DNA of 64,000 nucleotides from Candidatus Rariloculaceae bacterium (lineage in GTDB: Bacteria > Pseudomonadota > Gammaproteobacteria > Steroidobacterales > Rariloculaceae), in assembly GCA_965205045.1 (NCBI GenBank), contig OZ242031.1, positions 1,628,044 through 1,692,043 of the forward strand. The letters run 5' to 3'. The notes beneath the pieces are model-generated. The model saw only the letters and a list, made by a program, of their open reading frames with translations. It did no database searches and was not told the origin of the DNA. The translations under genes were made by a program, and so were the position numbers. This document shows positions 34,972 through 64,000 of the stretch, piece by piece. Position 1 is the stretch's first letter. Each line of letters starts with the position of its first letter.

Positions 34972-35670
34972 ATGACGTCGCAGAAAGAGCGCCGCTCCTT
35001 GAACGCCCTGCCGCCGGGCACGGTGCTGCACGACTACGTCATAGACTCGGAACTGGGCAGCGGCGGCTTCAGCATTGTGTATCTGGCGCGCCACCGCCTC
35101 AACATCGACTGGCTGTTCGCCATCAAGGAATACTTCCCGCGGGAACTGGTGGCGCGGGACGGCGACGATGGCAACGTGCGTCCCGTCAACACGGAGGCCG
35201 ACGGGGCGTTCGAGGACGGATTGAGGCGCTTCCGGGACGAGGCGGAGCAACTGCGGCGGTTCCGCAATGAGCGTTACATCGTCTCCTGCCTGAACTACTT
35301 CGAGGCCAACAGCACGGCGTACCTTGTGATGGATCATGACGACGGGTTGCCGCTGTCGGAATTCCTGCGAAGGCGGGAGGCCGCCGGGCAGCCGTTCACC
35401 GAGGCCGACCTGCGCGCCGTGGTCGAGCCGCTCCTGGAAGGGCTGGAGGTCGTTCACCGGGCCGGCGTCCTGCACCGGGACATCAAGCCGGGGAACATCT
35501 TCGTGCGCCGGCCGGACGACATCACCGGGCGGCCCGCGCAGCCGGTGCTGATCGACTTCGGGGCGGCGAAGCAGAACTACCTGGCGCGGCACAGCCGTTC
35601 GCAGGCGCCGTACACGCCGGGGTACGCGGCGTATGAGCAGGTGTCGTCGATGGGCGAGCTGGGTCCTTGA
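34972..35670 (+). pseudogene. Ser/Thr protein kinase paralogue A, truncated after the kinase domain
   Basis: GSGGFSIVYLARH (G-loop), AIKE (Lys), HRDIKPGNIF, IDFGAAK, PGYAAYEQ. It ends at ...SSMGELGP*, where paralogues continue WTDVYALGALMW. Homology is lost at about 35665. Confidence 0.8.
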
Positions 35671-35910
35671 GGTAGGGAAGCGCGATAGCAGCCTGAACAC
35701 CCGCGAAATGGCGCTCCCAGTCTCCGCCGACCAACGCCTCGATCATGCCTTCAAGTGCTGTTTCTGCTACCGATACCGAAAGTTGCCGACGGGCGGGTCA
35801 CCTCATTGGCCGCCCGGTGAACCCCCGCACCCCGTGACCACAGGATTACCGGAAGCAGTACGATCACCACGAGCATAAGGGAGCACCGGAACCGCTTCTA
35901 AGCTCCTGAT

Positions 35911-35940
35911 TTCCTTCTAGTTCCTTCTAGTTCCTTCTAG
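35911..35940. repeat. 10-bp tandem repeat ttccttctag x3 at the edge of an AT-rich tract
   Basis: Read directly. Followed by AT-rich sequence 35941-36110. Confidence 0.9.
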
Positions 35941-36134
35941 AAGATGCAATATATAATGCAACTTATGGATATATAAAGAGATATATGATGTATAGTCATC
36001 ACTTGACTTGCGTTGATACAGGCTCTACGTTTTGCGCTGATTTTCCTATTAACTCATTGATTTATATGAAAAAACTTACTGACTCGTGATATAACTGCGT
36101 TAGCACCCTTTTGCGACCAATAGGATGTGTGACG

Positions 36135-36653
36135 ATGGCAACGAAAAAGTCCGCTAAGGTTCGCGGTTCGAAACAAGACAGGCAGCTTCAAGCTCTCCGA
36201 AAACGGTATTGGGGCTCTATCCCTGATTCCGAGGTGTGGTCTCGACACCACCCTACGGTGGGTTTCACGACAATCCCACGTGGACTGAGCCACGTTATGC
36301 GAATTATGGATGACGCATCCAAAGGCAAACCGCTTTCGTCCACGTATTTCACCCTCTGGTGTTGGGCGCGCGATGCCCAGGTGGTCAATGTGGTTAACGC
36401 ATACGAACTGGCGCTCGAATCTGGATTTACTGGCCAACGAGCGGAATCCACATGGCGGCAGCGCATGCGACTATTGGAAGAATTCGGTTTCATTCGGATC
36501 GAAGAAGGACGATATGGCCCTATCTCCCACGTCTTGATTCTGCATCCCTATCTTGCAGTAAAGCGCCTGTCCGCCGCCGGTCGTGTTCAAACTATTCGAT
36601 ACAACGCCTTGGCGGAACGTCTCGGTGACGTAGGCGTCAATGACCTAGATTGA
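36135..36653 (+). CDS. hypothetical protein (possible DNA-binding protein)
   Basis: ORF 36111..36653, likely starting at ATG 36135 (MATKKSAKVRG...). Lower GC than core genes. No motif recognised. Confidence 0.45.
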   Translation: MATKKSAKVRGSKQDRQLQALRKRYWGSIPDSEVWSRHHPTVGFTTIPRGLSHVMRIMDDASKGKPLSSTYFTLWCWARDAQVVNVVNAYELALESGFTGQRAESTWRQRMRLLEEFGFIRIEEGRYGPISHVLILHPYLAVKRLSAAGRVQTIRYNALAERLGDVGVNDLD

Positions 36654-36691
36654 GGAGAGGGTTTGCGCGCTAAGAGGAATCGATCGGAAAA

Positions 36692-38041: not shown

Positions 38042-39823
38042 TCAGAGGGAGTTCTGGATCCGGGCATACAGTTCAAGGCTGAGCTGTTGCGCCTCGGCAA
38101 GTTGCGTCTCGGATAGGCTCCGGGCGATTTCATTCCGGAGGGCGACGGCATTCGGCTGGCCATCCACGCTGGCCAGACTCGCCCATGCGTAGGCTTGGCC
38201 GTTGTCCAGAGGAACGCCCTCGCCATTTGCGTACATGCGGCCCAAATTCATCTGAGCGTCGGGGATACCTTGTTCGGCAGCATGGGTGTACCACTGGAGA
38301 GCTTGAGCATAGTTTTGTGGCACTCCTTCGCCACCGTAGTACATGTAACCCAACATAGACTGCGAGCGGGCATGTCCTTGTTCGGCGGCCCTGGTGAACA
38401 TATCTGCGGCCCGGGCCTTGTCCTCGGGGCCGCCGTCGCCTTCGTAGTCCATGACGCCCAATGCAAACAGTACGTCGGCGACCTCGGCCTCATTGTCTGG
38501 AACGCTCTCGACATTCTCAAGCGTGACGTCCGATCTGTTCGGCGTGGAGAGTTGGCTTTGTTGCCCGTATTGTATGTACCAGACAATGCTCGCCAGCAAT
38601 ACGGCGGCGCACGACCAATATGCAAAGTGGCGACCGGTCAACAAAGGGGAAGCCAATCCGTTTTGTCGCGCACTACGTGTTCCGCCCTCATCTGATGCGC
38701 GCTCGTTCGGTGAATCAGATGCATCCCCGTTTTTTGTAGCGGGCAGATCGTTTGCGCGTCTCGGGCGTGCCGCTGGCGAATTCAAGTATTGCTTTGACAA
38801 AGGCGGGGCCGATGTTCGTAGCGTGTTGAGCAAGCTGAGCAACTCCTCGCAACTTTGCGTACGGTCGTCGGGATACAAGCTCAGACAATGGTCGATGGTT
38901 TTGAGCAGACGCGGCGAATACCGGCTCGCGCCCAACTCCGCCGCCGGAATCATCGGGTCCGCTTTGCCTCGGTGCAGCGCGTAGCCGCGCTTCTCCGCCG
39001 CTCGAGGGGTCGGGCTCCAAACCGGTTCACCCGTAGACTTATCCGATACAAGCAGCTTGGAATCGCCGGGACAGCCGCCGGCCACCATCCTCCACATCAG
39101 CGCGCCCAATGCATACACATCAGTCCACGGGCCGATATCGCCCATCGACGACACCTGTTCGAATGCCGCATACCCCGGCGTATACGGCGCCCGCGAACGA
39201 CTGTGCCGCTCCAGGTAGTTCTGCTTCGCCGCCCCGAAGTCTATCAACACCGGATGTGCTGGCCGTCCTGTAATGTCGTCCTGCCGACGAACGAATATGT
39301 TCCCCGGCTTGATGTCGCGGTGCAGAACGCCGGCCAAATGCACGACCGCCAACCCTTCCAGCAACGGCTCGACCACGGCCAGCAGGTCGGCTTCCGTGAA
39401 CGGTTGGCCCGCAGCTTCCCGGAGCCGAAGGAACTCCGACAACGGCAATCCGTCGTCGTAGTCCATGACCAGGTACGCGGTGTTGTTTTCCTCGAAATAG
39501 TTGAGGCAGGAGACGATGTAGCGCTCGTTCCTGAATTTTCGCAGTTGCTCCGCCTCGTCCCTGAAACGCCGCAGGCCGTCCTCGAAGGCGCTTCGAGCCA
39601 CGGTGTTAAGCGGACGCACGCCGGTTCCGTCGCGTGCTCTCGCGGCCAATTCGGCCGGGAGATGTTCCTTGATGGCGTACAGCCAGTCCGATTTGAGGTG
39701 GTGGCGCGCCAGGTAAACGATGCTAAACCCGCCGCTGCCCAGCTCCGACTCGATCACGTGGTCGCGCAGCACCGTGCCGGGCGGCAGGGCGTTCAGGGAT
39801 TGGGAGACGCTTCTCGACGGCAT
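38042..39823 (-). CDS. Ser/Thr protein kinase paralogue B: kinase + TM + Sel1 repeats
   Basis: Track ORF 38042..39913; start set at ATG 39823 (MPSRSVSQSLNALPPG), which aligns with paralogue starts. Kinase motifs are as in A. TM is YWSCAAVLLASIVWYI. C-terminal Sel1-like repeats include AAEQGHARSQSMLGYMYYGGEGVPQNYAQA. Confidence 0.9.
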   Translation of the reverse strand: MPSRSVSQSLNALPPGTVLRDHVIESELGSGGFSIVYLARHHLKSDWLYAIKEHLPAELAARARDGTGVRPLNTVARSAFEDGLRRFRDEAEQLRKFRNERYIVSCLNYFEENNTAYLVMDYDDGLPLSEFLRLREAAGQPFTEADLLAVVEPLLEGLAVVHLAGVLHRDIKPGNIFVRRQDDITGRPAHPVLIDFGAAKQNYLERHSRSRAPYTPGYAAFEQVSSMGDIGPWTDVYALGALMWRMVAGGCPGDSKLLVSDKSTGEPVWSPTPRAAEKRGYALHRGKADPMIPAAELGASRYSPRLLKTIDHCLSLYPDDRTQSCEELLSLLNTLRTSAPPLSKQYLNSPAARPRRANDLPATKNGDASDSPNERASDEGGTRSARQNGLASPLLTGRHFAYWSCAAVLLASIVWYIQYGQQSQLSTPNRSDVTLENVESVPDNEAEVADVLFALGVMDYEGDGGPEDKARAADMFTRAAEQGHARSQSMLGYMYYGGEGVPQNYAQALQWYTHAAEQGIPDAQMNLGRMYANGEGVPLDNGQAYAWASLASVDGQPNAVALRNEIARSLSETQLAEAQQLSLELYARIQNSL

Positions 39824-39990
39824 CCTGCCCGTTTTCCATGCGGCGGCGATGGCCGGATCATACGTCCGACGGGAATTCCGGCGGTCGCCGACGCCAAATC
39901 TCGGCAATTTCACAAGATTTGCCGATATTCCGCCCGCTTGGGAAGGCTTACCGTACCCCTTGGATACACACGACGGGGCGACGACCGCCG

Positions 39991-41001
39991 ATGGACAAGC
40001 TGCGGGACATCCAGGACCGACTCATGAAGCTCATGCTGGGCCGCCCGCGCATGGTGCGGGACCTGCTCGCGCTGCTGCCCGCGGAATGGACCGCGGCGGT
40101 GGACGCCTCCGTGCTTCGCGAGCTGCCCACCGAGTTCATCGGCGCGCGCGGCGACAAGCGCGTCGCGGACCTGTGCTGGATTGCGGAGGGTCCCGGCCGG
40201 GACCCGGTGATCGTGCTCATCGAGAACCAGTCCGCGCCCGACCGGCGCATGGCAGCGAGGGCGATGACGCGCACCGGCCTGCTCTACGAATCGCTCGGGG
40301 CAGCCGCGCGGGGGCCGGACCGGAAATTCCCGCCGCTGCTGATCGTCGTGGTGTACACGGGGGGGCGGCCCTGGCGAGTGCCGGACGACCTGACCGGCCT
40401 GGTGCGCGTGCCGGCCGGCCACCTGCTGTCGGTTCCCGTCGGCCCCCGCCACGCGCGGCTTGATTTGCGGGACCCCGCGGCGCAGTATCCCGAGCAAGGC
40501 AACCGCATGGCGGCACTGGCGCGGTTGGTGTTCGCGGAGTCGTATGCCGACGCCATCCGCCTTCTCGGCGAAGTGCGCGGATGGCTGGACTTCGGAGACG
40601 AGGACGAGGAGCGCCTGTTCCAGTGCTACCTGGACTGGTTCCAGGCGGTCGCCCCGGAGCTCCGCCCGCGGGACTGGAACCCGGAGCGCGAGAGGAAACT
40701 GGAGGAACTGATGGCCGAACAATCGATACTGCAGAGGAACAACGAGCGGTGGCTCAAACGCCATCGGCAGGAGTTGTTGGCGGAAGGTCGGCGCGAGGCG
40801 GTCGCCGAGGGTCGGCGGGAGGCGCTCGTGCGGCTGGCGGCGCGACGTTTCGGCGCCGACACCGGGCGGCGGCTCGAAGCCCGGTTGAGGGCGGTGGAGG
40901 GTCTCGGCCTCCTCGACCGCGTGGGCGATCTAATCGTGGACAGCAAGACCGGCGAGCAGTTGCTCGGCGGAATCGACCGCGCCGGCGTGAACTTGGGCTG
41001 A
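39991..41001 (+). CDS. Rpn family (YhgA-like, Transposase_31) PD-(D/E)XK nuclease with DUF4351-like C-terminus, copy 1
   Basis: Start at ATG 39991 (MDKLRDIQDRLMKLML). Nuclease core is ADLCW...VIVLIENQS. The C-terminus has AEGRREAV repeats followed by LVRLAARRFG. Divergent from kinase B. Confidence 0.85.
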   Translation: MDKLRDIQDRLMKLMLGRPRMVRDLLALLPAEWTAAVDASVLRELPTEFIGARGDKRVADLCWIAEGPGRDPVIVLIENQSAPDRRMAARAMTRTGLLYESLGAAARGPDRKFPPLLIVVVYTGGRPWRVPDDLTGLVRVPAGHLLSVPVGPRHARLDLRDPAAQYPEQGNRMAALARLVFAESYADAIRLLGEVRGWLDFGDEDEERLFQCYLDWFQAVAPELRPRDWNPERERKLEELMAEQSILQRNNERWLKRHRQELLAEGRREAVAEGRREALVRLAARRFGADTGRRLEARLRAVEGLGLLDRVGDLIVDSKTGEQLLGGIDRAGVNLG

Positions 41002-41262: not shown

Positions 41263-41267
41263 AAGCT

Positions 41268-41789
41268 GTGGGTATCGCCCCCCAAGACGTTCTGGTGCTG
41301 TTGAAGCTCGTGGCCATGGGCCCGCGGGCTTGGTCGTACAGTGAACTCGCCATCGAGCTCGGAATGAGTCCCTCTCAAGCGCACTCGGCCGTCCAACGCG
41401 CTCTGTCCGCGCGACTGGCGCTCCGGCGCAATGGCCGAATAACGCCCCAGACAACCAACCTGAAGGAGTTCCTCGTCCATGGCCTGAAGTATCTCTGCAT
41501 CCCCCAGCGTGGAGAACTCACGCGCGGAATACCGACTGCCCACGGCGCGCCGCCACTCGCCAATCTGCTGATCGAGCCTCAGGACGTTGTTCCAGTCTGG
41601 CCTCATCCGGAAGGCAACGTTCGCGGCGAATCCTTCTCGCCGATCTTCCGGTCGGCGCCGGAAGCCGCGTTGCGGGACAGGAAGCTATACCAACTCTTGG
41701 CGCTTGTGGATGCGATTCGAGGCGGTCGGCACCGCGAGCGCTCCCTGGCCGCGCGGGAACTCGGCGAGCGGCTGAAGGCTTATGGTTAG
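41268..41789 (+). CDS. hypothetical wHTH protein
   Basis: 173 aa. The N-terminus DVLVLLKLVAMGPRAWSYSELAIELGMSPSQAHSAVQRALSARLA is HTH-like. Confidence 0.5.
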   Translation: MGIAPQDVLVLLKLVAMGPRAWSYSELAIELGMSPSQAHSAVQRALSARLALRRNGRITPQTTNLKEFLVHGLKYLCIPQRGELTRGIPTAHGAPPLANLLIEPQDVVPVWPHPEGNVRGESFSPIFRSAPEAALRDRKLYQLLALVDAIRGGRHRERSLAARELGERLKAYG

Positions 41790-43259: not shown

Positions 43260-44654
43260 TCATCTCATTAGCCACAATAACCTGAGCAAGAACGCGCAAC
43301 CTGCGAATAACCAAACCATAACAATTGGTGCATCCATAGTGGCTTGCCATTGAAACGCCAATGGAAGGCCAAATATTGTAGGAAGTGCTATCGCTGAAAT
43401 CCTAGCCTTTAGCTTAAACCAAACGTACCACAAGAATAGAATAGATAAGATACATAGTACTATTGCCATTCCAACGGGCATGTCACTTTCAGTTAGACTG
43501 TTCCACCTGGCAGCATATCCGTATATCCAAATGGCAACGACAGAGACCGACAAGGCTCCGAAGCCAAGCTTAGCGTGACCGCGCACCATTGGAGCATTTG
43601 GTTTGTTTGATGTTTCCCGTCTATCTGGCGATGTTTTCGCGGGGCGTGATGGCGTATTGAGTAATTCCCTTAGCTCGGAACAGCTTTGTATACGATCTTC
43701 AGGAAAAAGGGCTAGGCAGCGGTCAATGGCGTCAAGCAGTTGTGCTGAAAATTGTTCAGTCCCTAAGGTTGCCGCCGACACCATCGGGTCGGGGCGGCCC
43801 CGGTGCAGGGCATAGCCGCGCTTCTCGACTGCTCGTGGTGTTGGACTCCAGGTGTTACCGTGATTTGTTTCATCTGGCACATATAAGCGTGAATCGCCAG
43901 TACATCCGCCCGCCACCATCCGCCACATCAGGGCACCCACGGCATACATATCGGTCCAAGGTCCAATTTCGCCGAGGGACGTTACCTGTTCATAGGCTGC
44001 GTATCCAGGAGTGTAAGGTGCTCGTGAACGACTGTGATGCGCGAGATAATTTTGTTTCGCTGCTCCGAAATCGATCAATACCGGATGCGCGGGATGGCCA
44101 GTTACGTCATCCTGCCTGCGAACGAATATGTTTCCGGGTTTGATGTCACGGTGAAGAACGCCCGCCCGATGAACGACAGCCAGTCCATCCAGCAGCGGCT
44201 CAATGACGGACAGCAGGTCGACTTGAGTGAACGGTTTGCCAGCTGCCTCGCGACGAAGAAGAAACTCGGACAGGGGCAATCCGTCATCGTAGTCCATGAC
44301 CAGGTACGCAGTGTCATTTTCCTCGAAATAGTTGAGGCACGAGACGATGTAGCGCTCGTTCCTGAACTTTCGCAGTTGTTCCGCCTCGTCCCTGAAACGC
44401 CGCAGCCCGTCCTCGAAGGCGGTTTGAGCCTCGGTGTTGAGAGGGCGCACGCCGGTGCCATCGTGTGCTCTCGCCGCCAATTCCGCCGGGAGAAATTCCT
44501 TTATGGCGTATAGCCAATCCGATTTGAGGTGGTGGCGCGCCAAGTACACGATGCTGAACCCGCCGCTGCCCAGCTCCGACTCGATCACGTAGTCGCGAAG
44601 CACCGTGCCGGGCGGAAGAGCGTTCAGTGATTGGGCAACGCTTCTTGACGGCAT
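43260..44654 (-). CDS. Ser/Thr protein kinase paralogue C: kinase + C-terminal 4-TM domain
   Basis: Track ORF 43260..44747; start set at ATG 44654 (MPSRSVAQSLNALPPG). Full kinase motifs. The C-terminus has about 4 hydrophobic helices homologous to the tail of paralogue G. Confidence 0.9.
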   Translation of the reverse strand: MPSRSVAQSLNALPPGTVLRDYVIESELGSGGFSIVYLARHHLKSDWLYAIKEFLPAELAARAHDGTGVRPLNTEAQTAFEDGLRRFRDEAEQLRKFRNERYIVSCLNYFEENDTAYLVMDYDDGLPLSEFLLRREAAGKPFTQVDLLSVIEPLLDGLAVVHRAGVLHRDIKPGNIFVRRQDDVTGHPAHPVLIDFGAAKQNYLAHHSRSRAPYTPGYAAYEQVTSLGEIGPWTDMYAVGALMWRMVAGGCTGDSRLYVPDETNHGNTWSPTPRAVEKRGYALHRGRPDPMVSAATLGTEQFSAQLLDAIDRCLALFPEDRIQSCSELRELLNTPSRPAKTSPDRRETSNKPNAPMVRGHAKLGFGALSVSVVAIWIYGYAARWNSLTESDMPVGMAIVLCILSILFLWYVWFKLKARISAIALPTIFGLPLAFQWQATMDAPIVMVWLFAGCAFLLRLLWLMR

Positions 44655-44990
44655 CCTGTCCGTTTTCCATGCGGCGACGATGGCCGGATTATACGTCCGA
44701 CGGAAATTCCGGCGGCGCAGGCGGCAGCAGCGTTGAAACCATGCCATTGACCCGAGACTTCAAAGCGGCGGTTCGGGTGCAGACCGGGCTCGGCATCGCG
44801 GGTGGGGCGCGGCCCGCGCTTGAACGCCCCGACGCCGCCCGTGTCGACGTGCCGCGGCATCCAGCCCCGGCGGTGGCCGACACCAAATTTCGTCAATTTC
44901 CCCGCAAAGTCACAAGATTTGCCGATTTTGCGGTCCCTTGGGAAGGCTTACCGTACCCCTTGGATACGCACGACGGGGCGACGATCACCG

Positions 44991-46043
44991 ATGGACAAGC
45001 CGCAAGACATCCGCGACCGCCTCATGAAGATCATGCTGAGCCGCCCGCGCATGGTGCGGGACCTGCTCGCGCTGCTGCCTGCGGAATGGACCGCGGCGGT
45101 GGACGCCTCCGGCCTGCGCGAGATGCCCACCGAGTTCATCGGCGCGCGCGGCGACAAGCGCATCGCCGACCTGTGCTGGCTTGCGGAGGGTTCAGGCCGG
45201 GACCCGGTGGTCTTGCTCATCGAGAACCAGGCCGCGCCCGACCGGCGCATGCCGGCGCGGGCGACGACGCGCACCGGGCTGCTCTACGAATCGCTCGGCA
45301 CCGCGGCGCGGGGACCGGACGGCAAGTTTCCGCCGCTGCTGATCGTTGTGGTATACACGGGAGACCGGCCCTGGCGGGCACCGGACGACCTGAGCGGAAT
45401 GGTGCGGATACCCGCTGGCCACCCGCTGTCGGTTCCGGTCGGCCCCCGCTACGCGCGGCTTGATTTGCGGGACCCTGCGGCGCAGTATCCCGAGCAAGGC
45501 AACCGCATGGCGGCGCTGGCGCGGCTGGCGTTCGCGGAGTCGTATGTCGACGCCATTCGCGTGCTCGGCGAATTGCGCGGATGGCTGGACTTCGGGGACG
45601 AGGACGAGGCGCGCCTGTTCCAGTGCTACCTGGACTGGTTCCACGCGACCGCGCCGGAGTTCCGTCCTCGGGATTGGAACCCGGAGCGCGAAAGGAAATT
45701 GGAGGAACTGATGGCCGAACAATCGATACTGCAGAGGAACAACGAGCGCTGGCTCAAGCGCCATCGGCAGGAGTTGTTGGAGGAAGGTCGCCGCGAAGCG
45801 ATCGCCGAGGGCCGGCGGGACGGGCTCGCGGAAGGTCGGCGGGAAGGACACGCGGAAGGTCGGCGCGAAGCGCTCGTGCGGCTGGCGGCGCGGCGCTTCG
45901 GCGCCGACACGGGGCGGCGGCTCGAAGCCCGGTTGAGGGCCGTGGAAGATCCGGGCCGCCTTGACCGGGTGGGCGACCTGATCGTGGACAGCGAGACCGG
46001 CGAGCAGTTGCTCGGCGGAATCGACCGAGCCGACGTCAACTAA
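44991..46043 (+). CDS. Rpn family PD-(D/E)XK nuclease, copy 2
   Basis: Start at ATG 44991 (MDKPQDIRDRLMKIML). Same architecture as copy 1. Four EGRRE-type octapeptide repeats. Confidence 0.85.
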   Translation: MDKPQDIRDRLMKIMLSRPRMVRDLLALLPAEWTAAVDASGLREMPTEFIGARGDKRIADLCWLAEGSGRDPVVLLIENQAAPDRRMPARATTRTGLLYESLGTAARGPDGKFPPLLIVVVYTGDRPWRAPDDLSGMVRIPAGHPLSVPVGPRYARLDLRDPAAQYPEQGNRMAALARLAFAESYVDAIRVLGELRGWLDFGDEDEARLFQCYLDWFHATAPEFRPRDWNPERERKLEELMAEQSILQRNNERWLKRHRQELLEEGRREAIAEGRRDGLAEGRREGHAEGRREALVRLAARRFGADTGRRLEARLRAVEDPGRLDRVGDLIVDSETGEQLLGGIDRADVN

Positions 46044-46218
46044 AGCTGACCCGGCGCGGCGCCCGCCACTTGCGGCGCGGTGTCGGGTCCGATGTCGGGA
46101 TGATCGGAGCGCGCCAGGTAGGCGATGCTGCCCCCTAAACTGCTGGTCTTTGCATTTGGCGCGGCATAGTGATACAAAACCTATGAACTCAGAATTTAAT
46201 TTATGTGGTTTTGTATCA

Positions 46219-52060: not shown

Positions 52061-53154
52061 TAGAAACCGATCCTTGTCTGGCGCAGGTGCTGAGCCAATT
52101 CTTTCGCACGGCCCTGGCTGCGCATCAAGTCGAGGTAGACCTGCACGGGGCTTGCCAGCCAGGTTCCCTTCATACGCTGGCGAAACAGCAACTCGCCGGT
52201 CGAGTTGACGTCGATGATCTCAAGGTTCGCGCCTTGGTCAACGAGGCGGGCATCGAGTGCGCCAATAACCTCACCCGCTGCTGGTTCGGCCAGCAGCCGA
52301 CAACGCACTTGTGAATAATTCGACAAGAACGGCGCGTAGCGTTGGCCCGCCGCCTCGTGGGTGATCGCGTACTCGGCCTTGTGCGCCGCGCACGCCTTGG
52401 CGAACTTCTCGACCAGCCCCTCCACACGCACCGACGGCACGAAGTATCGCCGCATTGCAGGAGGACGCATCACCATCAGTTGCTTTGCCCATGCATCCAG
52501 TAAGGTGCCAGGCTCTTGCAGTTGGCGTTCCTTGCCCGGCCCTTTCCCGCGCGACACCACCCAATCGAGCCTCTCCAGTTCCGTTAGCGCTTGCGAGGAG
52601 GTTGCGGGCGATACTTGGGCCTGCTCAGCGATTTCCTTGACTCTGAACCAGTCGCCATGCCGCATCAGGACAGCGTGAAGCACCTGCGCGCGGCGACCGG
52701 AAAACAGAGAGCGGATGGTTTTCGACAAACTCTTCGGGGGCGGTTTGTCTACATACACGTAGACGTTACCTGCAGGGAGAAACAGGCTGCCGCCGCTATC
52801 GTAGTATCCAACCTGCTCGTCCTTCAGCAGGTCCTTGGCTCCCGGTGAAATCGATCGGGCAACCAGGACGGGCACAGTTTGTTGGCCTTCCCCGGACTGC
52901 GACCTTTGCCCCGCAAAGTCCCGGAGCTGCCAAAGCACCTGCCGCACGTCACGAGGATACAGGGTCTTCTTTAACTCGATCAGCAGGGTAGCTGGCTGCT
53001 CGCCCGCCCAGATGTCAGCCTGGGCATCATATCCCCGATGCCCGCCGTACAGTCGAGGGACCTCACTCAACGCCGCCTGCACGTCTGGCAGCCCGCGAAG
53101 GGCGTTGAGAAACCCGTCGAGTAGTTGTTCATCCGTTACTGCTGCGTCAGACAT
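52060..53154 (-). CDS. wHTH protein, putative AbiEi-like antitoxin/regulator
   Basis: Start set at ATG 53154 (MSDAAVTDEQ...). The HTH-like segment is FRVKEIAEQAQVSPATSSQALTELERLDWVVSRG. Operon partner of the 51161 NTase. Confidence 0.55.
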   Translation of the reverse strand: MSDAAVTDEQLLDGFLNALRGLPDVQAALSEVPRLYGGHRGYDAQADIWAGEQPATLLIELKKTLYPRDVRQVLWQLRDFAGQRSQSGEGQQTVPVLVARSISPGAKDLLKDEQVGYYDSGGSLFLPAGNVYVYVDKPPPKSLSKTIRSLFSGRRAQVLHAVLMRHGDWFRVKEIAEQAQVSPATSSQALTELERLDWVVSRGKGPGKERQLQEPGTLLDAWAKQLMVMRPPAMRRYFVPSVRVEGLVEKFAKACAAHKAEYAITHEAAGQRYAPFLSNYSQVRCRLLAEPAAGEVIGALDARLVDQGANLEIIDVNSTGELLFRQRMKGTWLASPVQVYLDLMRSQGRAKELAQHLRQTRIGF

Positions 53155-53887
53155 CAGTATTTCCCGTTTTTTGATGAGCAGTAAATATATTGAGACTAGC
53201 AAATATTTGAGGAAATGGCGATATTCGCTGTGCAGTGAATTTGGCGATCCGAGGGTTACGGATCGGGAAATCATTTAATGGGCCGCGACCCATGATTCCT
53301 GTCGGCGAAGTAAAAAATCCTCACCGCTCTCAAATTTCGGACACATGGCCCGTATTCGGGACCAATGCGGGTTCCCCACCGCTCATCATCCCATATCGGT
53401 GCGCCAGGCAGAATGCCCTTCCGAGTCTTGATTTAACCAAGAGAACAACAAGTCTCCCTGTCTGGTATAACCTTCCCTTGCCCCGGATCGAATTGAAGTA
53501 TGAGAGAAACGTTCATTGGCGGCATAACACCAGCCGCGCCGCATGGTAAGGGAATAATCGGATGAGGTCGCAGAATGGGCGACCCTCCTTGAATGCCCTG
53601 CCGCAGGGCACGGTGTTGCACGACTACGTCATCGACTCGGAACTGGGCAGCGGCGGCTTCAGCATTGTGTATCTGGCGCGGCACCGCCTCAACACCGACT
53701 GGCTGTTCGCCATCAAGGAGTACTTCCCGCGTGAACTGGTGGCGCGGGACCGCGACAATGGCAACGTGCGTCCCGTCAACACGGAGGCCAAAGGGGCGTT
53801 CGAGGACGGATTGAGGCGCTTCCGGGACGAGGCGGAGCAACTGCGCCGGTTCCGCAACGAGCGCTACATCGTCTCCTGTCTGAACTA

Positions 53888-54740
53888 GGGCGTGTTAACA
53901 CTAGCAGGCAAAAACGTGGTATCCTTCGTCGCGTTGTCCAGGACGCGGAAACCGGAGGAAAATCAGGGATATGGAACTCACCGAAGCCCAATTCGAACGG
54001 ATCGGGCCGCTGCTGCCGGTGCAGCGCGGAAACGTGAGCCTGCCGAACATCCAGGTGCTCAACGCGATCCTGTACGTGGCCGAGCACGGCTGCAAGTGGC
54101 GCGGGCTGCCCGAAAGGTTCGGCAATTGGCACACCGTCTACACGCGGATGAACCGCTGGTCGAAGAACGGCGTTCTGGATCGCGTGTTCGAGCACCTGCA
54201 ACGGGAGCGGCTCGTGCGCGTCAAGGTGGAGGCGGCGGGGCTGGACAGCACCAGCGTCAAGGTGCATCCGGACGGCACGGGGGCGGAAAAAAAAACGGCC
54301 CCCAATCCATCGGCAAGTCCCGTGGGGGCTGGACCACCAAGATTCATATGGTTGCCGCGGATGACCGGACCGCCCTCGCGTTCTCGCTCTCTCCAGGCCA
54401 GGCGCACGACGCGCCCGAAGGGCGCAAGTTGCTGAGAGGCATGGAGAAACCGTCGAACAGCCCGGCGCTGGTGATGGACCGCGCGTATGAGGACGACGCC
54501 ACCCGCCAACTGGTTCTGGACCTGGGATTCGTGCCGGTCGTGCCGCCGAAGAGCAACCGCGTCGACCCTTGGGAGTACGATCGGGAGATGTACAAGCGGC
54601 GCAATGAGGTCGAGCGGCTGTTCCGGCGCCTGAAGGGGTTCCGGCGCATCTTCTCGCGCTTCGAGAAACTCGATGTCGTATTCCTCGGCTTCGTCGTCTT
54701 CGTGCTCATCGTCGACGCGTTGCTGTAGTGTTAACAGGCC
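53888..54740 (+). mobile_element. IS5-family (IS427/IS1031-like group) insertion sequence, 853 bp
   Basis: Imperfect terminal IRs: gggcgtgttaacacta at the left, and ggcctgttaacacta (reverse complement) at the right. 3-bp direct repeat CTA at 53885-53887 and 54741-54743. The uninterrupted target ctgaactacttcgagg is present in paralogue G at about 60450-60475. Confidence 0.9.
53971..54728 (+). CDS. IS5-family DDE transposase (orfA-orfB, probable -1 frameshift at an A9 run)
   Basis: orfA is MELTEAQFERIGPLLP...GCKWRGLPERFGNWHTVYTRMNRWSKNGV. orfB, in the -1 frame, is ...GGWTTKIHMVAADDRTALAFSLSPGQAHD...VMDRAYEDD...YKRRNEVERLFRRLKGFRRIFSRFEKL. The A9 run at 54287-54295 lies at the frame junction. 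Confidence 0.85.
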
Positions 54741-57451
54741 CTACTTCGAGGCCAATGGCACAGCGTACCTGGTAATGGACTACGACGACGGGTTGCCGCT
54801 GTCGGAATTCCTGCGGCGGCGGGAGGCCGCCGGGCAGCCGTTCACCGAGGCGGATTTGCGCGCCGTGGTCGAGCCGCTCCTGGAAGGGCTGGAGGTCGTT
54901 CATCGGGCCGGCGTCCTGCACCGGGACATCAAGCCGGCAAACATATTCGTGCGCCGACCGGACGACATCACCGGGCGGCCCGCGCAGCCGGTGCTGATCG
55001 ACTTCGGGGCGGCGAAGCAGAACTACCTGGCGCGGCACAGCCGTTCGCAGGCGCCGTACACGCCGGGGTACGCGGCGTATGAGCAAGTCTCATCAATGGG
55101 CGAACTGGGGCCTTGGACGGACGTGTATGCTCTTGGCGCTCTAATGTGGCGGATGGTGGCGGGCGGTTGTCTGGGGGATGAGCGTTTACAGGAACCTAGG
55201 AGCGTCGACAATGCAGGCGGTCTTGGAGTGGGTAACCCAACTCCGCCGGCGGCCGAGAGGCGGGCATACGCGCTTCACAGGGGACAGCCGGACCCGATGG
55301 CGATGGCGTCGGCGTTGGGGGCGGGCCGGTTCTCGCCCACATTGCTCGCCTCAATCGACCGTTGTCTGGTCTTGTATCCGGAAGATCGTGTCCAGAGCGT
55401 CGCGGAATTGCGTTCGTTGCTCGATGATACCGGCGCGGGAACGGGCGCAGGGGCTTCTGCGGAGTTTGAGGCCGCGCCGACATCACAAGCGCCGTCCCCT
55501 GTGACTTCGAGCCGCAGTCGTGCGGGGGCCGTGGCTGCCTCGCTCGCCGTCATGGTGTCACTGTCGTTCATCGGCGGCTACCTTTGGTTGCGAACATCTG
55601 CGGATCAAAGATCATTACCAGACGCTACGGAGGACAGTTCGACAGGCACACTGCCGAGTTCGGTAGCGGGCGAATCGGCGCCGCCATCGGTGGTTGGCGG
55701 CTCAGCGATACTGGTCGTGCAGACGGACCCACCCGGCGCCGAGGTGGTGGTCGGGAACACAGTGGTGGGCGAAACGCCCCTGCGGCTCGGGAATCTGCGT
55801 TCCGGAACCTATCCGGTGACATTGCGCCATCCCGCCTACGAACCTTTTCGTCTAGAGAACCAAACGTTCGAGGATGGCGTAGTGCTGCGCATCGAACGCA
55901 CGCTGGTCCGGGGGACGGGACGGCTAACGGTGATCGCGCGGCCGGTGACCGCCTGGATCGAGCATGAGGGTGCGCGTCTGGCAGAGGGCACACCGGTGAC
56001 GCTGGAGGGCCTGCCGGCCGGGATTTTGGAGTTGACGCTGGGCGCAAACGAGCACCGGACCATCCTAGTGCGGGCGGAAGTACCGAAGGACGGCGTGGGT
56101 ATGCTGGAGTCGGAACTGGAGCCAATCCCGTATGGGACGCTGACGCTAGAGTTGGAGCCACCGGACGCGACGGTGACGCTGCCGGATGTGCGGATCAGTT
56201 ACCGGCCGGGCGTGCGGTTGCCGGAAGGCTCTCATCGAATAGTGGTAAGCCGTGTTGGTTACCGTGAAATTGAACGCACGGTGACTGTGTTGGGCGAATC
56301 GCGAGTCCGGATCCAGTTGGCGGTTGACCCGCAGCCGTTCACGGTGGCGGTAACGCCGACGGAGGCGGCGGTGAGTTTTGTGGAGTACGCTGAGGCGTAT
56401 GAGCCCGCGATGCTGCTGGAACCCGGAACGTACAGGGTGCGGGTGAGTACCACAGGTTACGAGCCGTGGGAAGGGTCCATTGAGCATGGCGTCGAACCGA
56501 CGCAGGCCTCGATTCGGCTTTCGATCGCGATACCCGCTGTGGGCGGGACGTTTTCGGAGCCTTTTAATTCCGGCGGCGAGGGTCCGGAGATGGTGGTGAT
56601 CCCGGCCGGACGGTTTCGGATGGGGTGTCTGAACGACGATGGGGATTGCGATGGTTCCGAGTTTCCGGTGCACGAAGTGGTGATCCCAAGGGCATTTGCG
56701 GTCTCGAAATACGAGGTGACGTTCGAGCAGTGGGATGCATGCGCGGCGGGAGGTGGCTGCGGCGGGAATCGCCCGGATGACGCGGGTTGGGGCCGCGGCC
56801 GGAGTCCTGCGATCAATGTGTCGTGGGACGACGCGCGGGAATTCGTGGAGTGGTTGTCGCGTCAGACGGATCAGAGTTACCGGTTGTTGAGCGAGGCGGA
56901 ATGGGAGTACGTGGCACGGGCAGGGTCCGAGACTACGTACAGTTGGGGCAACGCCGTTGGGTCGAACCGGGCTAACTGCTCTTATATATGGGAAGCCATT
57001 GACCTCAGTGCATGTGGCGATCTATGGGAATACACCGCGCCAGTGGGTTCATTTGTTGCCAATTCATTCGGGGTGCATAACATGCACGGCAACGTATCAG
57101 AGTGGGTGGAAGATTGCTGGAACGCCGGGTATCCAGGCGCACCGTCGGACGGCAGTGCATGGCGGAGCGGGGATTGCAGCCTGCGCGTATTGCGCGGCGG
57201 TTCCTGGTTCGATAGTCCAGAGAACCTGCGCTCGGCGAACCGCCGAAGGAACTCCACAGGAAGCCGGAGCAGCATCATCGGATTCCGTGTGGCTCGGACG
57301 CTCATTGCGCCAGGGATAAGCCCTGGAGGGGATGATATGAACTGAAGCCTCTCGTCGGGCCAGCGAGTTCGACTTCCGCCCGACAATCACGCAGCCCGCC
57401 AGCCGGAAGCGAGTCTTGCATCGCGCACGGTAACGACGAGACCCACGGCTG

Positions 57452-59749
57452 TTACCGAAATGGCAGGACGTATTGAGTCCAATACTGACGAGAGAGTTCC
57501 TGCGCCTGAGTGACCTGAAATTCGGTCATTCGCTCTGCGACTCGATCCTTTGCGGTAGCTGCCCCCGCATGGGATTGAGCTTCAGCAACACTGAACCAAG
57601 CGTATGCTTCTATTGCATCCTCCGCCACGCCCGCGCCGATCACATACGCGGCCCCGAGATTGAACTGGGCGTAGGCATTACCCTGCTCGGCCGCAAAACG
57701 AAACCAGCGAACCGCCTCACTGGCGTCTTCCGGAACACCTTCACCGCGGTAGTACGAACTGCCCAAACTGAACTGGGCGCCTGCATGACCCTGCTCAGCC
57801 GCAAGACGCCACCATCGCGCCGCCTCCACAGTATCCTCGGGGACACCTTCCCCAAAGGCGTATGCCCATGCGAGTCTATATTGAGCATCGGCAAGACCCT
57901 GTTCGGCCGCAAGACGGAACCAGCGCACCGCTTCCGCATCGTCTTCGGCAACACCCTCGCCGCCAAAGGCGTATATGTTGGCCAAATTGAATTGGGCATT
58001 GGCATCGCCCTCCTCGGCCGCAAGACGATACCAACGTACGGCTTCGGCATCGTCTTCGGGGACACCTTCGCCATTTTTGTATGCCCATCCGAGTCTAAAA
58101 TAGGCATCGGCAAGACCCTGCTCGGCCGCAAGATGGAACCAACGCACCGCTTCGGCGTAGTCTTGGACAACACCCTCGCCCCCAAGTGCGTATATTTCAC
58201 CCACATTGTATTGGGCATCGGCAACGCCCTGTTCGGCCGCGAGACGGAACCAACGCACCGCTTCGGCGTAGTCTTGGACAACACCCTCGCCTCCTTCGGC
58301 GTAGATTACGCCCAAATTGAATTGGGCAGCAGCATTGCTCTGCTCGGCGAAATGCAAAAAACCTTCAAGCGCAATTCTGAGGTCGCCTCGCTCATAAGCC
58401 GCAGTGGCTTCATCAAAAGTCTGCTCAATGGCAGGCAATTCGACCAGGGTATCGGTGCGTTCTTCAAGCTCCGCGACCGGCGGGTCCTCCGGGGGAATCG
58501 GTTCCGTATCGCGCGGAGTGTTGTCCTCGGCAAGTATCAACAACAACCCTATAGTCAATATCACGAACAGGGTGCCGACACCCAACCACCAACGCGCAAA
58601 TGGCTTAGTACGCATCTGCACGTTGTCCGTCGCATTTGTCGGGGTGTCCAATCCTCGACCATTTCCTTGTAAAGCACCTGACATTGACGAATCCCTCTCG
58701 GGTTCGACACTAGACTGTTCCTGTCCCGACAGTCCTCCCTTGAGCAAATCCGACAAGTCACGGCAATCTTGCACCCGATCCTCTGGATATAGCGCCAGAC
58801 ACCGGTCAATGGCCTCCAATACGAGAGACGAGAACCTTTCTTTGCCCAAATCCACCGCGGGAGGAATTGGATCCGCCCATCCTCGATTTAGGGCGTAGGC
58901 TCGTTTCTCCACCTGCTTGGGACGAGGGTGCCATACAGACTTTTCCGCCTGGATACCGTGCGATTCATTGGGCATTAGCAACCTCGAATCGCCCGGGCAT
59001 CCACCCGCAACCATCCGCCACATCACCGCACCCAACGAGTAGATGTCAGTCCAGGGACCTATCTCCCCCATTGACGAGACCTGCTCGTACGCCGCATATC
59101 CGGGTGTATACGGTGCCTGTGAACGACTATGCCGCTCTAGGTAGTTCTGCTTCGCCGCCCCGAAGTCGATCAGCGCCGGATGTGCGGGCTGACCTGTGAT
59201 GTCGTCCTGCCGTCGAACGAATATGTTTCCTGGCTTGATGTCCCGGTGCAGAACCCCCGCGCGATGGACGACCGTCAGCCCTTCCAGTAATGGCTCCACC
59301 ACGGCCAGCAGGTCGGCTTCCGTGAAGGGCTGACCCGCCGCTTCCCGGAGCCGAAGAAACTCCGACAACGGCAATCCATCGTCGTAGTCCATAACCAAGT
59401 ATGCGGTGTCGTTTTCCTCGAAGTAGTTCAGGCACGAGACGATGTAGCGCTCATTCCTGAACTTTCGCAGTTGCTCCGCCTCGTCCCTGAAACGCCGCAG
59501 GCCGTCCTCAAAGGCGCTTTGAGCCTCGGTGTTGAGCGGGCGCACGCCGATGCCGTCGCGTGCTCTCGCGGCCAATTCGACCGGGAGATACTCCTTGATG
59601 GCGTACAACCAGTCAGATTTGAGGTGGTGGCGTGCCAGGTACACGATGCTGAACCCGCCGCTGCCCAACTCCGACTCGATGACGTAGTCGCGAAGCACCG
59701 TGCCGGACGGCAGGGCGTTCAGGGATTGGGAGACGCTTCTCGACGGCAT
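57452..59749 (-). CDS. Ser/Thr protein kinase paralogue F: kinase + TM + about 9-10 Sel1 repeats
   Basis: Track ORF 57452..59833; start set at ATG 59749. Kinase motifs are complete. TM is WWLGVGTLFVILTIGLLLILA. The long Sel1 array has the unit AEAVRWFRLAAEQGxADAQYxLGxxYxxGEGV. Confidence 0.9.
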   Translation of the reverse strand: MPSRSVSQSLNALPSGTVLRDYVIESELGSGGFSIVYLARHHLKSDWLYAIKEYLPVELAARARDGIGVRPLNTEAQSAFEDGLRRFRDEAEQLRKFRNERYIVSCLNYFEENDTAYLVMDYDDGLPLSEFLRLREAAGQPFTEADLLAVVEPLLEGLTVVHRAGVLHRDIKPGNIFVRRQDDITGQPAHPALIDFGAAKQNYLERHSRSQAPYTPGYAAYEQVSSMGEIGPWTDIYSLGAVMWRMVAGGCPGDSRLLMPNESHGIQAEKSVWHPRPKQVEKRAYALNRGWADPIPPAVDLGKERFSSLVLEAIDRCLALYPEDRVQDCRDLSDLLKGGLSGQEQSSVEPERDSSMSGALQGNGRGLDTPTNATDNVQMRTKPFARWWLGVGTLFVILTIGLLLILAEDNTPRDTEPIPPEDPPVAELEERTDTLVELPAIEQTFDEATAAYERGDLRIALEGFLHFAEQSNAAAQFNLGVIYAEGGEGVVQDYAEAVRWFRLAAEQGVADAQYNVGEIYALGGEGVVQDYAEAVRWFHLAAEQGLADAYFRLGWAYKNGEGVPEDDAEAVRWYRLAAEEGDANAQFNLANIYAFGGEGVAEDDAEAVRWFRLAAEQGLADAQYRLAWAYAFGEGVPEDTVEAARWWRLAAEQGHAGAQFSLGSSYYRGEGVPEDASEAVRWFRFAAEQGNAYAQFNLGAAYVIGAGVAEDAIEAYAWFSVAEAQSHAGAATAKDRVAERMTEFQVTQAQELSRQYWTQYVLPFR

Positions 59750-60141
59750 CCTGTCCGTTTTCCATGCGGCGACGATGGCCGGATTATACGTCCGACGGGA
59801 ATTCCGGCGGTCGCCGACACCAAATCTCGGCAATTTCCAGGCAGAGTCACAAGATTTGCCGATATTCTGACCGCTTGGGAAGGCTTACCGTACCCCTTGG
59901 ACACCCCTCTCAAGGTTCGCACATTTGGCCCGTATTCGGGACCAATGCGGGTTCCCCACCGCTCATCATCCCATATCGGTGCGCCAGGCAGAATGCCCTT
60001 CCGAGTCTTGATTTAACCAAGAGAACAACAAGTCTCCCTGTCTGGTATAACCTTCCCTTGCCCCGGATCGAATTGAAGTATGACAGAAACGTTCATTGGC
60101 GGCATAACACCAGCCGCGCCGCATGGTAAGGGAATAATCGG

Positions 60142-61668
60142 ATGAGGTCGCAGAATGGGCGACCCTCCTTGAATGCCCTGCCGCAGGGCACGGTGTTGCA
60201 CGACTACGTCATCGACTCGGAACTGGGCAGCGGCGGCTTCAGCATTGTGTATCTGGCGCGGCACCGCCTCAACACCGACTGGCTGTTCGCCATCAAGGAG
60301 TACTTCCCGCGCGAACTGGTGGCGCGGGACCGCGACAATGGCAACGTGCGTCCCGTCAACACGGAGGCCAAAGGGGCGTTCGAGGACGGATTGAGGCGCT
60401 TCCGGGACGAGGCGGAGCAACTGCGCCGGTTCCGCAACGAGCGCTACATCGTCTCCTGTCTGAACTACTTCGAGGCCAATGGCACAGCGTACCTGGTAAT
60501 GGACTACGACGACGGGTTGCCGCTGTCGGAATTCCTGCGGCGGCGGGAGGCCGCCGGGCAGCCGTTCACCGAGGCGGATTTGCGCGCCGTGGTCGAGCCG
60601 CTCCTGGAAGGGCTGGAGGTCGTTCATCGGGCCGGCGTCCTGCACCGGGACATCAAGCCGGCAAACATATTCGTGCGCCGACCGGACGACATCACCGGAC
60701 GGCCCGCGCAGCCGGTGCTGATCGACTTCGGGGCGGCGAAGCAGAACTACTTGGCGCGGCACAGCCACTCGCAGGCGCCGTACACGCCGGGGTATGCCGC
60801 CTACGAACAGGAATCGTCCGAGGGGGACATTGGTCCGTGGACCGACATCTACTCGGTCGGTGCGCTGATGTGGCGGATTGTAGCTGGTGGTTGTGCGGAT
60901 GATGAGAGCCTGCTCAAGTCCGATGGCGCTGACGAAATCTCCGGCTCTGGAGCTTGGGATCCGACGCCTCCACCAGCGCAGTCACGGGCCTATGCGCTGC
61001 ACTTGGGCCGACCGAATCCGATGAAATCGGCAGCAGCGTTGGGTGCGGATCGATTTTCGCCACAGTTGCTTCACACTATTGACAGTTGTCTATCGCTTTA
61101 TTTTGGCGATCGCGTTCAGGATTGCGCAACGTTGATTGGCTTGCTCAATACGCCGGCACCGCCCGCGAACACCTCCTCCAATCAACACGATCAATCAAGG
61201 AAGCCCAAAAGCCCTTGGATGGGCTTGACCAAGGGTTTATTCAATGCAGTATTGAGGATCCCGAAAATCACTTTGTCCAAGATACTCAAGCTAATGTCTT
61301 ATTCCGACGGGGGGCTATCGCTTGGTTTCGTGGCTTTGGCTGGTTCAGTTGTTGCCATGTGGGCCTACGTATTAGCGGATTATTCGGGAAGTTCAACCAT
61401 TGAGAACTGGATGTTCTTTATGGCATTAAGTTGTGGTTTGTCGATCGCTGCTCTACGATTCGCTTGGTTTGAACTGGAAGCCAGAATTACGGCTTGCGCG
61501 CTTTCTACGTTAGTCGGCCTTCCAATGGTCCTAGCGACTTCACCATTTTCTAACTATGTCTGGATAGAGGAAGTTTTTCGCAGATTTGGACTTCCTTACT
61601 TCTATGTTGTCCTCGCGTTTCTCCTTTGGGCACTATGGCTAGTGAATGATCGCGATCCTTTCTTGTAA
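60142..61668 (+). CDS. Ser/Thr protein kinase paralogue G: kinase + C-terminal 4-TM domain (intact reference for E)
   Basis: 508 aa. Its first 220 or so aa are identical by eye to the joined fragments of E. The C-terminal hydrophobic domain is homologous to the tail of C. Confidence 0.9.
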   Translation: MRSQNGRPSLNALPQGTVLHDYVIDSELGSGGFSIVYLARHRLNTDWLFAIKEYFPRELVARDRDNGNVRPVNTEAKGAFEDGLRRFRDEAEQLRRFRNERYIVSCLNYFEANGTAYLVMDYDDGLPLSEFLRRREAAGQPFTEADLRAVVEPLLEGLEVVHRAGVLHRDIKPANIFVRRPDDITGRPAQPVLIDFGAAKQNYLARHSHSQAPYTPGYAAYEQESSEGDIGPWTDIYSVGALMWRIVAGGCADDESLLKSDGADEISGSGAWDPTPPPAQSRAYALHLGRPNPMKSAAALGADRFSPQLLHTIDSCLSLYFGDRVQDCATLIGLLNTPAPPANTSSNQHDQSRKPKSPWMGLTKGLFNAVLRIPKITLSKILKLMSYSDGGLSLGFVALAGSVVAMWAYVLADYSGSSTIENWMFFMALSCGLSIAALRFAWFELEARITACALSTLVGLPMVLATSPFSNYVWIEEVFRRFGLPYFYVVLAFLLWALWLVNDRDPFL

Positions 61669-61758
61669 AACCGTCCAAGCGCTGGAATACAGTTCATCCG
61701 CAAATTTCACATTAAAATCCTGTCCGAACATTTGGGACAACTTCTATTCCTAATGCAA

Positions 61759-62115
61759 TCAGGGTGAAAATATATATATCTTGGCGAGTCTTGCGACAGT
61801 AGCAAAGGCCGCTATCGTCATAAACTCCCATGCGCAAGCACGCCAGTACATTCTGAATGTGGGTTCCGGTAGTTTGCCACTTTCGATGATGTTTACCGCT
61901 GTTTCCTCTGGGTTTGGAGCATCGCTTATCAACGCGAGATTCAGGGCGTCGCTAGGCTTTCTTACATGATTCTCAGCGCTCCCGAGTCGGCGGTAGGCTC
62001 CATGTACTCTCCACGATCCGAGTGCAATTGAAACGACTAGGCAAAACCCCAAAAGGGACCACCATCCACCAAGCACCGCAATGCCCGCTATCAGCCCGGC
62101 AATTGAACCCAACAT
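61759..62115 (-). CDS. hypothetical membrane protein
   Basis: 118 aa. AAAGGAGA RBS lies 6 nt upstream. N-terminal TM pair is IAGLIAGIAVLGGWWSLLGFCLVVSIALG, with a C-terminal hydrophobic segment. Confidence 0.5.
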   Translation of the reverse strand: MLGSIAGLIAGIAVLGGWWSLLGFCLVVSIALGSWRVHGAYRRLGSAENHVRKPSDALNLALISDAPNPEETAVNIIESGKLPEPTFRMYWRACAWEFMTIAAFATVARLAKIYIFSP

Positions 62116-62371
62116 TGAAGTCTCCTTTTCAGATATGTTCGGAATTGGCTACCGTGGACAGACGCTTCATGCTCGGGCACGTTTGCTGGATCATTGAGCG
62201 GCAGTTCTTCCTCCGCGGTTACAATATACGGCAACTCCTTGACCGTGATCGTAAAGTGCGTTGTCCGCTATCGGTATTCCTACGACTGTAGCCGGTCGGG
62301 ATCGGATTTCGTAAACCGCCAGTAGTTCTGATGTCTGCCGCCAGCATCGCCCGACGAAGCTAGCGACCGAT

Positions 62372-64000
62372 TCATGAAGATAACTCCCTGGCGACTCGAA
62401 AACCAATACCATTATCGGTTTCGTCAACAGTAGCGCAGCCACGGCTGGCAGAGCGCAAATCCGATGGGTTGGAAGCCCAGCAACCGCCACGAATTACGCG
62501 CATTTCTGGTATGTCGATTCTGCGTCGAGTGTCTATGTAGGGTTCCCAACCGTCACCGTCGCGAGTAAGCTCCCAAGCTCTGCCATCATCTGGTACGCCC
62601 CAGTAACTGCCACGACAATCCTGCGTCCATTCACTCACGTTCCCATGTACATCGTGCAAGCCGAACGCGTTTGCGGGAAATGTCCACACCGGTGTCGTTC
62701 GCTCCCGATTAAGGCCCTTCACGCCCGAACCGTAGCAAAAGGCACCGTTATAGTTTGCTTCATGCGTAGCAATCGTCCTTCCGAAATGAAACGGGGTACA
62801 TGTTCCGGCCCGCGCTACATATTCCCATTCTGCTTCGCTCAACAGACGGTAAGTTGCCCCTGTCTTGGCCGATAACCACTCAGTATACTCCTGTGCGTCA
62901 TTCCAGCTTACGCAGACCACCGGATGCGAGTCCGTTTGATGGAACCCGGGATACCGCCAAGTGTAGAGGGTGGGATCATTTTCGCGACTCCAGCTGTGTC
63001 CTTCAGCCCGAAACCCAGTGGTGTCGACGAATTCTGCGAACTCGCCTCGAGTAATGGGATAGACACCAACCGAGAACGGTTTCTGAATTGTCACAGGATG
63101 CATTGGACCTTCGCTCGAATCTCGGCCTTCTTCCTCACTAAAGCCGTCGAAACCATCGGGAAATTTCAACTCGCGAACGGTTTCTTCGCATTCTTTCTTG
63201 CTCGCCCAAAAAAGGACGTTATGCGGGTCGGCGAATGCCATTTCAAATCTGCGAAAATACTCTGTATCGAACTCAGAAAGCGAGTGCAGTGTGGACATCC
63301 AGAAGCTGGGGTTGAGTTCGTAACCTGCCTCCAGAGCTTCTCGTGCCAAGTGTCCGACACCCGCGTTTAGAACGCCTTCCGCTATCCAGTCCAAGTTGCC
63401 AGTCTGCAGTTCGTTTTTCGTTTCGAAATCAAGCCATTCCGAGTTATCCACGACGTATCGAAAAGGGTATCCGGGAAGATCCTCATGGTGCATGATCCAT
63501 CCAAGAAGCCTTTCACGCACGTTCGCCAGCACATGCTCCGCAGACTGGGGTTGCGAACTCGCGGACATCAAAAAATGCCGGGCAGTTTCCGAAAGTCCCG
63601 TCCGCCCGGAAGGAACCCATATCTGGTGCGGTGATCCCATCCTGTACGTACCCGCAGGAATCACAACCATCTCCGGCCAATCGGGGCCATCTCTGAACCG
63701 CTCGCCTACTCGTAGAGGCGCCTTGACCGATACAGATTTGGCCGATTCGTCCGAGGAGCTTGAGACAAGCTCCGTCCGCGGTTCCAGCAACTCCATCAGC
63801 TTGGCGCAACTTTGCACTCTATCCTCTGGATATAGGGCGAGACAGAGGTCGATGGCTTTCAGAATGTGCGGAGGAAATCGGCCCGCCCCCAACTCCGCCG
63901 CCCGTACCATCGGGTCTGGCCGCCCCCGGAGTAGCGGGTAGCTGCGCATCTCTGCCGCCCAGGGAGTCGGGCTCCTATCCGGTCCACCTCTATCTGATGC
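62372..64000 (-). CDS. Ser/Thr protein kinase paralogue H (partial; N-terminus beyond the window): kinase C-lobe tail + split FGE-sulfatase domain
   Basis: The frame stays open to 64000 (...SPTPWAAEMRSYPLLRGRPDPMVRAAELGAGRF aligns with paralogues B and D). The C-terminal FGE domain has MVVIPAGTYRMG...(long insert)...SEAEWEYVARAG...HGNVSEWTQDC...RVIRGGCW. Confidence 0.85.
   Translation of the reverse strand, partial: ASDRGGPDRSPTPWAAEMRSYPLLRGRPDPMVRAAELGAGRFPPHILKAIDLCLALYPEDRVQSCAKLMELLEPRTELVSSSSDESAKSVSVKAPLRVGERFRDGPDWPEMVVIPAGTYRMGSPHQIWVPSGRTGLSETARHFLMSASSQPQSAEHVLANVRERLLGWIMHHEDLPGYPFRYVVDNSEWLDFETKNELQTGNLDWIAEGVLNAGVGHLAREALEAGYELNPSFWMSTLHSLSEFDTEYFRRFEMAFADPHNVLFWASKKECEETVRELKFPDGFDGFSEEEGRDSSEGPMHPVTIQKPFSVGVYPITRGEFAEFVDTTGFRAEGHSWSRENDPTLYTWRYPGFHQTDSHPVVCVSWNDAQEYTEWLSAKTGATYRLLSEAEWEYVARAGTCTPFHFGRTIATHEANYNGAFCYGSGVKGLNRERTTPVWTFPANAFGLHDVHGNVSEWTQDCRGSYWGVPDDGRAWELTRDGDGWEPYIDTRRRIDIPEMRVIRGGCWASNPSDLRSASRGCATVDETDNGIGFRVARELSS

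What the first reader, a model, noticed from the sequence alone, without database searches (positions are those of the whole stretch)
34972..64000. Array of eight paralogous Hanks-type kinases with a constant head and swapped sensor tails
Eight kinase genes lie within 29 kb and share a near-constant catalytic domain (GSGGFSIVYLARH, AIKE, HRDIKPxNIF, IDFGAAK, PGYAAYEQ). They carry three unrelated C-terminal architectures. Paralogues B, D and F have Sel1 repeats, with a TM segment in B and F only. E and H have a TM segment, PEGA repeats and an FGE-sulfatase domain. C and G have a 4-TM domain. Two head subfamilies exist: A/E/G start M(T/R)SQ... with RLN(I/T)DWLFAIKEYFPRELVARD, and B/C/D/F start MPSRS... 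with HLKSDWLYAIKE. Four copies are visibly damaged (A truncated, D split, E carrying an IS, H running off the window). Together this looks like a rapidly diversifying receptor-kinase cassette locus rather than ordinary signalling genes. Its interleaving with nucleases and Abi-type modules suggests a defence or conflict function.
Basis: partly seen in the sequence, partly recalled or inferred. Interest (0 to 1): 0.8.

Follow-up and report, generated by a model that had tools for sequence, protein, structure and literature searches.

The report
Recombining array of sensor kinase genes
A soil or sediment gammaproteobacterium carries at least eight protein kinase genes side by side whose front halves are kept almost identical by recombination while their sensor ends differ, a real and apparently undescribed pattern whose biological role, possibly threat sensing, is still unproven.

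Summary
Seven Hanks-type kinase heads lie between 34972 and 64000, plus the last ~75 kinase residues of an eighth (H). All seven have intact catalytic motifs and carry Sel1, TM-PEGA-FGE, FGE-only or 4-TM tails. One correction: H has no TM and no PEGA.

The heads are not merely conserved. Identity at synonymous sites falls from 5' to 3' inside the kinase domain. E and G share an 870-nt tract with 5 mismatches that ends abruptly. This is gene conversion between genes with unrelated tails.

Contigs from close relatives share 92-99.7% identical segments of this locus but hold different cassettes. At one orthologous position a Sel1 tail is replaced by an FGE tail.

The closest solved structure to the head is the T6SS kinase PpkA. 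In more than 25 other genomes this kinase family sits beside a conserved MotA/ExbB-FHA-PP2C-FHA-vWA cluster, usually with 2-4 kinases. That cluster is absent from this window.

Rpn nucleases, AbiE pairs, an IS and defence candidates are interleaved with the kinases, here and in relatives. Close Rpn homologues elsewhere have no kinase neighbour.

Best reading: an expanded, recombining bank of alternative sensor kinases feeding one phospho-threonine pathway. A defence role is plausible but unshown.

The parts
33145..34913 (+). Two overlapping ORFs directly upstream of kinase A. The first is 339 aa with a weak MarR-type wHTH and the size of an AbiEi_2-like regulator. The second is a 251-aa partner of unknown family. 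Possibly an AbiE-like pair.
   Evidence: Pfam MarR_2 E 2e-4 only. No PADLOC or PHROG hit for the partner. The pairing is inferred from layout and from 339-aa AbiEi_2 genes in L037 and L040.
34972..35670 (+). Kinase A: a head-only remnant of 232 aa, of the A/E/G head type.
   Evidence: Pkinase E 2e-24. Homology to all other heads ends at 35669.
38042..39823 (-). Kinase B: head, weak TM segment, three Sel1 repeats (593 aa).
   Evidence: Identical to protein P0033, called in the source genome.
39991..41001 (+). Rpn1: an Rpn/YhgA-like PD-(D/E)xK nuclease gene, divergent from B. The start is uncertain (ORF opens at 39838, Met codons at 39991 and 40024). It has two AEGRREAx repeats.
   Evidence: PF04754 at 38.5 bits, above the cut-off of 21. 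The D...IENQ motif and repeats are visible in the sequence.
41268..41789 (+). 173-aa protein matching PADLOC candidate PDC-M21A. Here it is an orphan, because its PDC-M21B partner is absent.
   Evidence: PADLOC E 7e-42. The A+B pair sits beside kinases in L004, L006 and L040.
43260..44654 (-). Kinase C: head plus a 4-TM tail (464 aa). The tail has GC3 of only 0.38-0.46.
   Evidence: The tail is 73% identical to a kinase tail in L040.
44991..46043 (+). Rpn2 (350 aa), divergent from C, with four AEGRREAx repeats.
   Evidence: PF04754 at 29.6 bits. The P0122 gene call is 100% identical. Sequence shown.
46150..47707 (+). Canonical AbiEi (46150-46836) and AbiEii (46829-47707) type IV toxin-antitoxin / abortive infection pair.
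   Evidence: Pfam AbiEi_4 and AbiEii. PADLOC E 7e-86 and 2e-119.
47806..49846 (-). Kinase D: head plus cytoplasmic Sel1 tail. It is disrupted by a 70-bp insertion at about 48267-48336.
   Evidence: Compared with the intact 656-aa orthologue in L037.
50014..51087 (+). Rpn3, divergent from D. It carries an in-frame TGG-to-TAG nonsense codon at 50698-50700.
   Evidence: The L037 and L038 orthologues are intact.
51161..53274 (-). A 404-aa wHTH protein with a weak AbiEi_2-like C-terminus (52060-53274), and a 299-aa partner of unknown family (51161-52060).
   Evidence: Pfam MarR_2 3e-5 and AbiEi_2 1.7e-3. The pair is conserved at 90-97% in L038, next to a kinase.
53562..57345 (+). Kinase E: head, TM, PEGA repeats and FGE-sulfatase (975 aa when rebuilt). 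It is interrupted at codon 108.
53885..54740 (+). IS element inside E (DDE_Tnp_1 transposase, terminal inverted repeats, TA target duplication).
57452..59749 (-). Kinase F: head, TM and seven Sel1 repeats (765 aa).
   Evidence: (P0001 is 100% identical).
59804..59904 (.). 100-nt remnant of the Rpn unit upstream of F. It abuts the G-type upstream block.
   Evidence: Self-blastn matches at 87% to 44867-44967 and 88% to 39051-39967. Alignment.
59930..60798 (+). Gene-conversion tract shared by G and E. The E copy is 53350-53884 plus 54741-55074. The tract is 870 nt with 5 mismatches, followed by about 35% mismatch.
60142..61668 (+). Kinase G: head plus a 4-TM tail (508 aa).
   Evidence: The C and G tails are 35% identical.
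62372..64000 (-). Kinase H (partial): the end of the kinase C-lobe followed directly by an FGE-sulfatase domain with an insert. No TM segment and no PEGA repeat.
   Evidence: The tail is 75% identical to a 795-aa kinase-FGE protein in L039.
31194..32603 (-). ATPase_2/DUF234 protein matching PADLOC candidate PDC-S27. It lies at the island edge and is flanked by 78% direct repeats at 30398-30603 and 32735-32941.

Best explanation
The region is the visible part of a hypervariable island. It starts at about 30.4 kb, just after the core genes kdsD-lptCAB-rpoN-hpf-rapZ, and runs past 64 kb. It holds an expanded array of PpkA-like Hanks-type Ser/Thr kinase genes.

**Shown**
- Every readable copy keeps an intact catalytic core.
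- Each copy carries a different C-terminal module. B and F have a TM segment followed by Sel1 repeats. E has TM, PEGA and FGE (C-type-lectin-like) domains. D has Sel1 repeats and H an FGE domain, each without a TM segment. C and G have a 4-TM module.
- The first ~200 codons and the upstream block are kept nearly identical by recurrent gene conversion or homologous recombination among paralogues. For the MPSRS head type, that block also contains the neighbouring Rpn gene.
- The C-lobe and tails are old, separately conserved lineages.
- The locus therefore evolves by re-assorting head-plus-upstream units with tail units, alongside duplication, deletion, IS insertion and pseudogenisation. Close relatives differ in which cassettes they carry.

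**Inferred**
- Because all copies share one catalytic head, they act as alternative inputs to one phospho-threonine pathway.
- That pathway is the FHA / PP2C / vWA / MotA-ExbB gene set that accompanies this kinase family in other genomes. It may lie beyond the window here.
- A uniform head keeps every sensor compatible with the same substrates and phosphatase.
- TM-containing copies would sense periplasmic or envelope cues with the kinase domain in the cytoplasm. This topology rests on hydropathy and flanking charges only.
- A role in sensing attack (phage, competitors or envelope damage) is the most likely biological theme, given the company these genes keep. It has not been demonstrated.
- The Rpn and AbiE genes are most likely autonomous toxin or defence modules that live in, and are co-amplified with, this recombination-prone array.
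For: **Domains and motifs**
- Pfam domains and catalytic motifs are as described.

**Recombination within the window**
- Heads are 76-98.6% identical at nucleotide level, while tails of one class are 35-47% identical at protein level.
- Third-codon-position identity falls 5' to 3' in the B/C/D/F pairs and in E-G. Examples over six successive codon bins: E-G 0.98/1.00/1.00/0.69/0.35/0.44 and B-C 0.78/0.82/0.60/0.29/0.48/0.36.
- E and G share an 870-nt tract with 5 mismatches and a sharp boundary.
- GC3 is about 0.88 in the 5' parts and 0.38-0.66 in the tails.
- The same GC3 bias occurs across the clade. It is absent from the one non-homogenised kinase, L038_3802.

**Turnover between relatives**
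- L037 matches window 51326-45180 at 97-99.7% and then diverges.
- L038 matches window 53242-48895 at 92% up to kinase codon ~317. It then carries an FGE tail where the window has Sel1.

**Homogenisation in other genomes**
- In L036, three kinases with LRR, unknown and DUF805 tails share 96-98% of the N-part and a genome-specific N-terminus.
- In Aliiglaciecola and Pseudidiomarina loci, co-located paralogues share 78-88% of the N-part but only 51-64% of the C-lobe.

**Family identity and usual neighbours**
- The best solved relative is PpkA, at E 7e-36 against 1e-14 for the next hit.
- MotA/ExbB, FHA, PP2C, a 509-aa FHA protein and vWA genes flank the family in more than 25 of 35 genome loci. 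In L038 and L039 they directly abut such arrays.
- Tails have 65-75% identical relatives in other genomes, so they are maintained by selection.
Against: - No FHA, PP2C, vWA or MotA gene is present anywhere in the 64-kb window (tblastn; Pfam). The shared-pathway step rests entirely on relatives.
- Three of the seven readable kinases (A, D, E) and one Rpn gene are broken. A good part of the array may therefore be non-functional in this strain.
- Higher identity of the N-part at protein level could partly reflect stronger purifying selection rather than conversion. Only the synonymous-site data exclude this, and only for this clade.
- No substrate, ligand or phenotype is known for any member.
- TA and defence genes recur next to the kinases, including an AbiEi_2/AbiEii pair kept at 75-85% identity beside kinases in four genomes. 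This could mean a tighter functional link than hitch-hiking.
Confidence: 0.55

Rival explanations
1. Dedicated anti-phage or abortive-infection kinases. Each kinase would be a stand-alone or toxin-coupled immune sensor in the manner of Stk2 or PD-T4-6. The tail would recognise a phage or invader cue. The activated head would phosphorylate host targets or the adjacent Rpn or AbiEii toxins to stop growth.
For: - The array is interleaved with three Rpn genes, one canonical AbiE pair, two AbiE-like pairs, PDC-M21A and PDC-S27.
- Related arrays hold RES-HEPN, AbiE, SIR2, a DruA-like gene, AIPR/MzaE-like genes and a large NTPase.
- An AbiEi_2/AbiEii pair is conserved at 75-85% identity next to kinases in L001, L002, L037 and L040.
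- Cassette turnover between close relatives is typical of defence loci.
- AbiEii/MenT-family toxins are known to be controlled by phosphorylation (PMC11375011; bioRxiv 10.64898/2026.01.19.700257).
- Rpn proteins are toxic antiphage nucleases (PMC10400941).
Against: - Matches to mad6, PD-T4-6, MkoA and PglW cover only the generic catalytic domain. C-lobe plus tail queries hit nothing.
- NCBIfam MAD6 scores 94 bits against a cut-off of 460.
- Most sensor tails are predicted to face the periplasm or lie in the membrane. That is not where known Abi kinases meet phage proteins.
- Across Gammaproteobacteria the family is tied to an FHA-PP2C-vWA cluster rather than to toxins.
- Rpn homologues at 38-81% identity occur without kinases.
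- Defence genes accumulate in any recombination hot spot.
Confidence: 0.2
2. A selfish or decaying amplification. An Rpn nuclease gene landed next to one kinase. The Rpn-plus-head unit was then copied around by nuclease-stimulated or homology-driven recombination. The array would be a by-product, largely on its way to pseudogenes, with no collective function.
For: - Rpn plus the intergenic region plus the head forms one homology block of about 2.2 kb at 85-89% identity in B, C and D, with a remnant at F.
- Five Rpn copies occur in the 21 kb of L037.
- One recombination breakpoint in L037 lies inside Rpn2.
- E. coli Rpn proteins stimulate RecA-independent recombination (PMC5350276).
- A, D, E and Rpn3 are broken.
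Against: - The A/E/G head type shows the same conversion pattern without any Rpn gene.
- Arrays in L036, L039 and L001 have no Rpn gene.
- Catalytic motifs are intact in all seven heads.
- Tails are conserved at 65-75% across genomes, which indicates purifying selection.
Confidence: 0.12
3. Ordinary old signalling paralogues that happen to be neighbours, with a head conserved only by purifying selection and no unusual dynamics.
For: - The head is 70-84% identical at protein level in many genomes, with many tail types.
- Multi-kinase families with Sel1, FGE, PEGA, Ank and LRR tails are well known in bacteria (PMC1262709).
Against: - Synonymous sites are also near-identical in the 5' part, with sharp tract boundaries.
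- Gene content differs between contigs that are 97-99.7% identical in the shared segments.
- N-termini are genome-specific.
Confidence: 0.05
4. Assembly artefact. Repeats of 1-2 kb could have been mis-joined in a metagenome-assembled genome, creating false mosaics and false frameshifts.
For: - The source appears to be a MAG-type 5.99-Mb contig.
- Some lesions (the 70-bp insertion and the single nonsense codon) are seen in only one assembly.
Against: - Independent assemblies L037 and L038 reproduce the same units and long collinear stretches.
- The IS has clean inverted repeats and a target duplication.
- Proteins B, D, F and Rpn2 are present identically in the public protein set.
Confidence: 0.03

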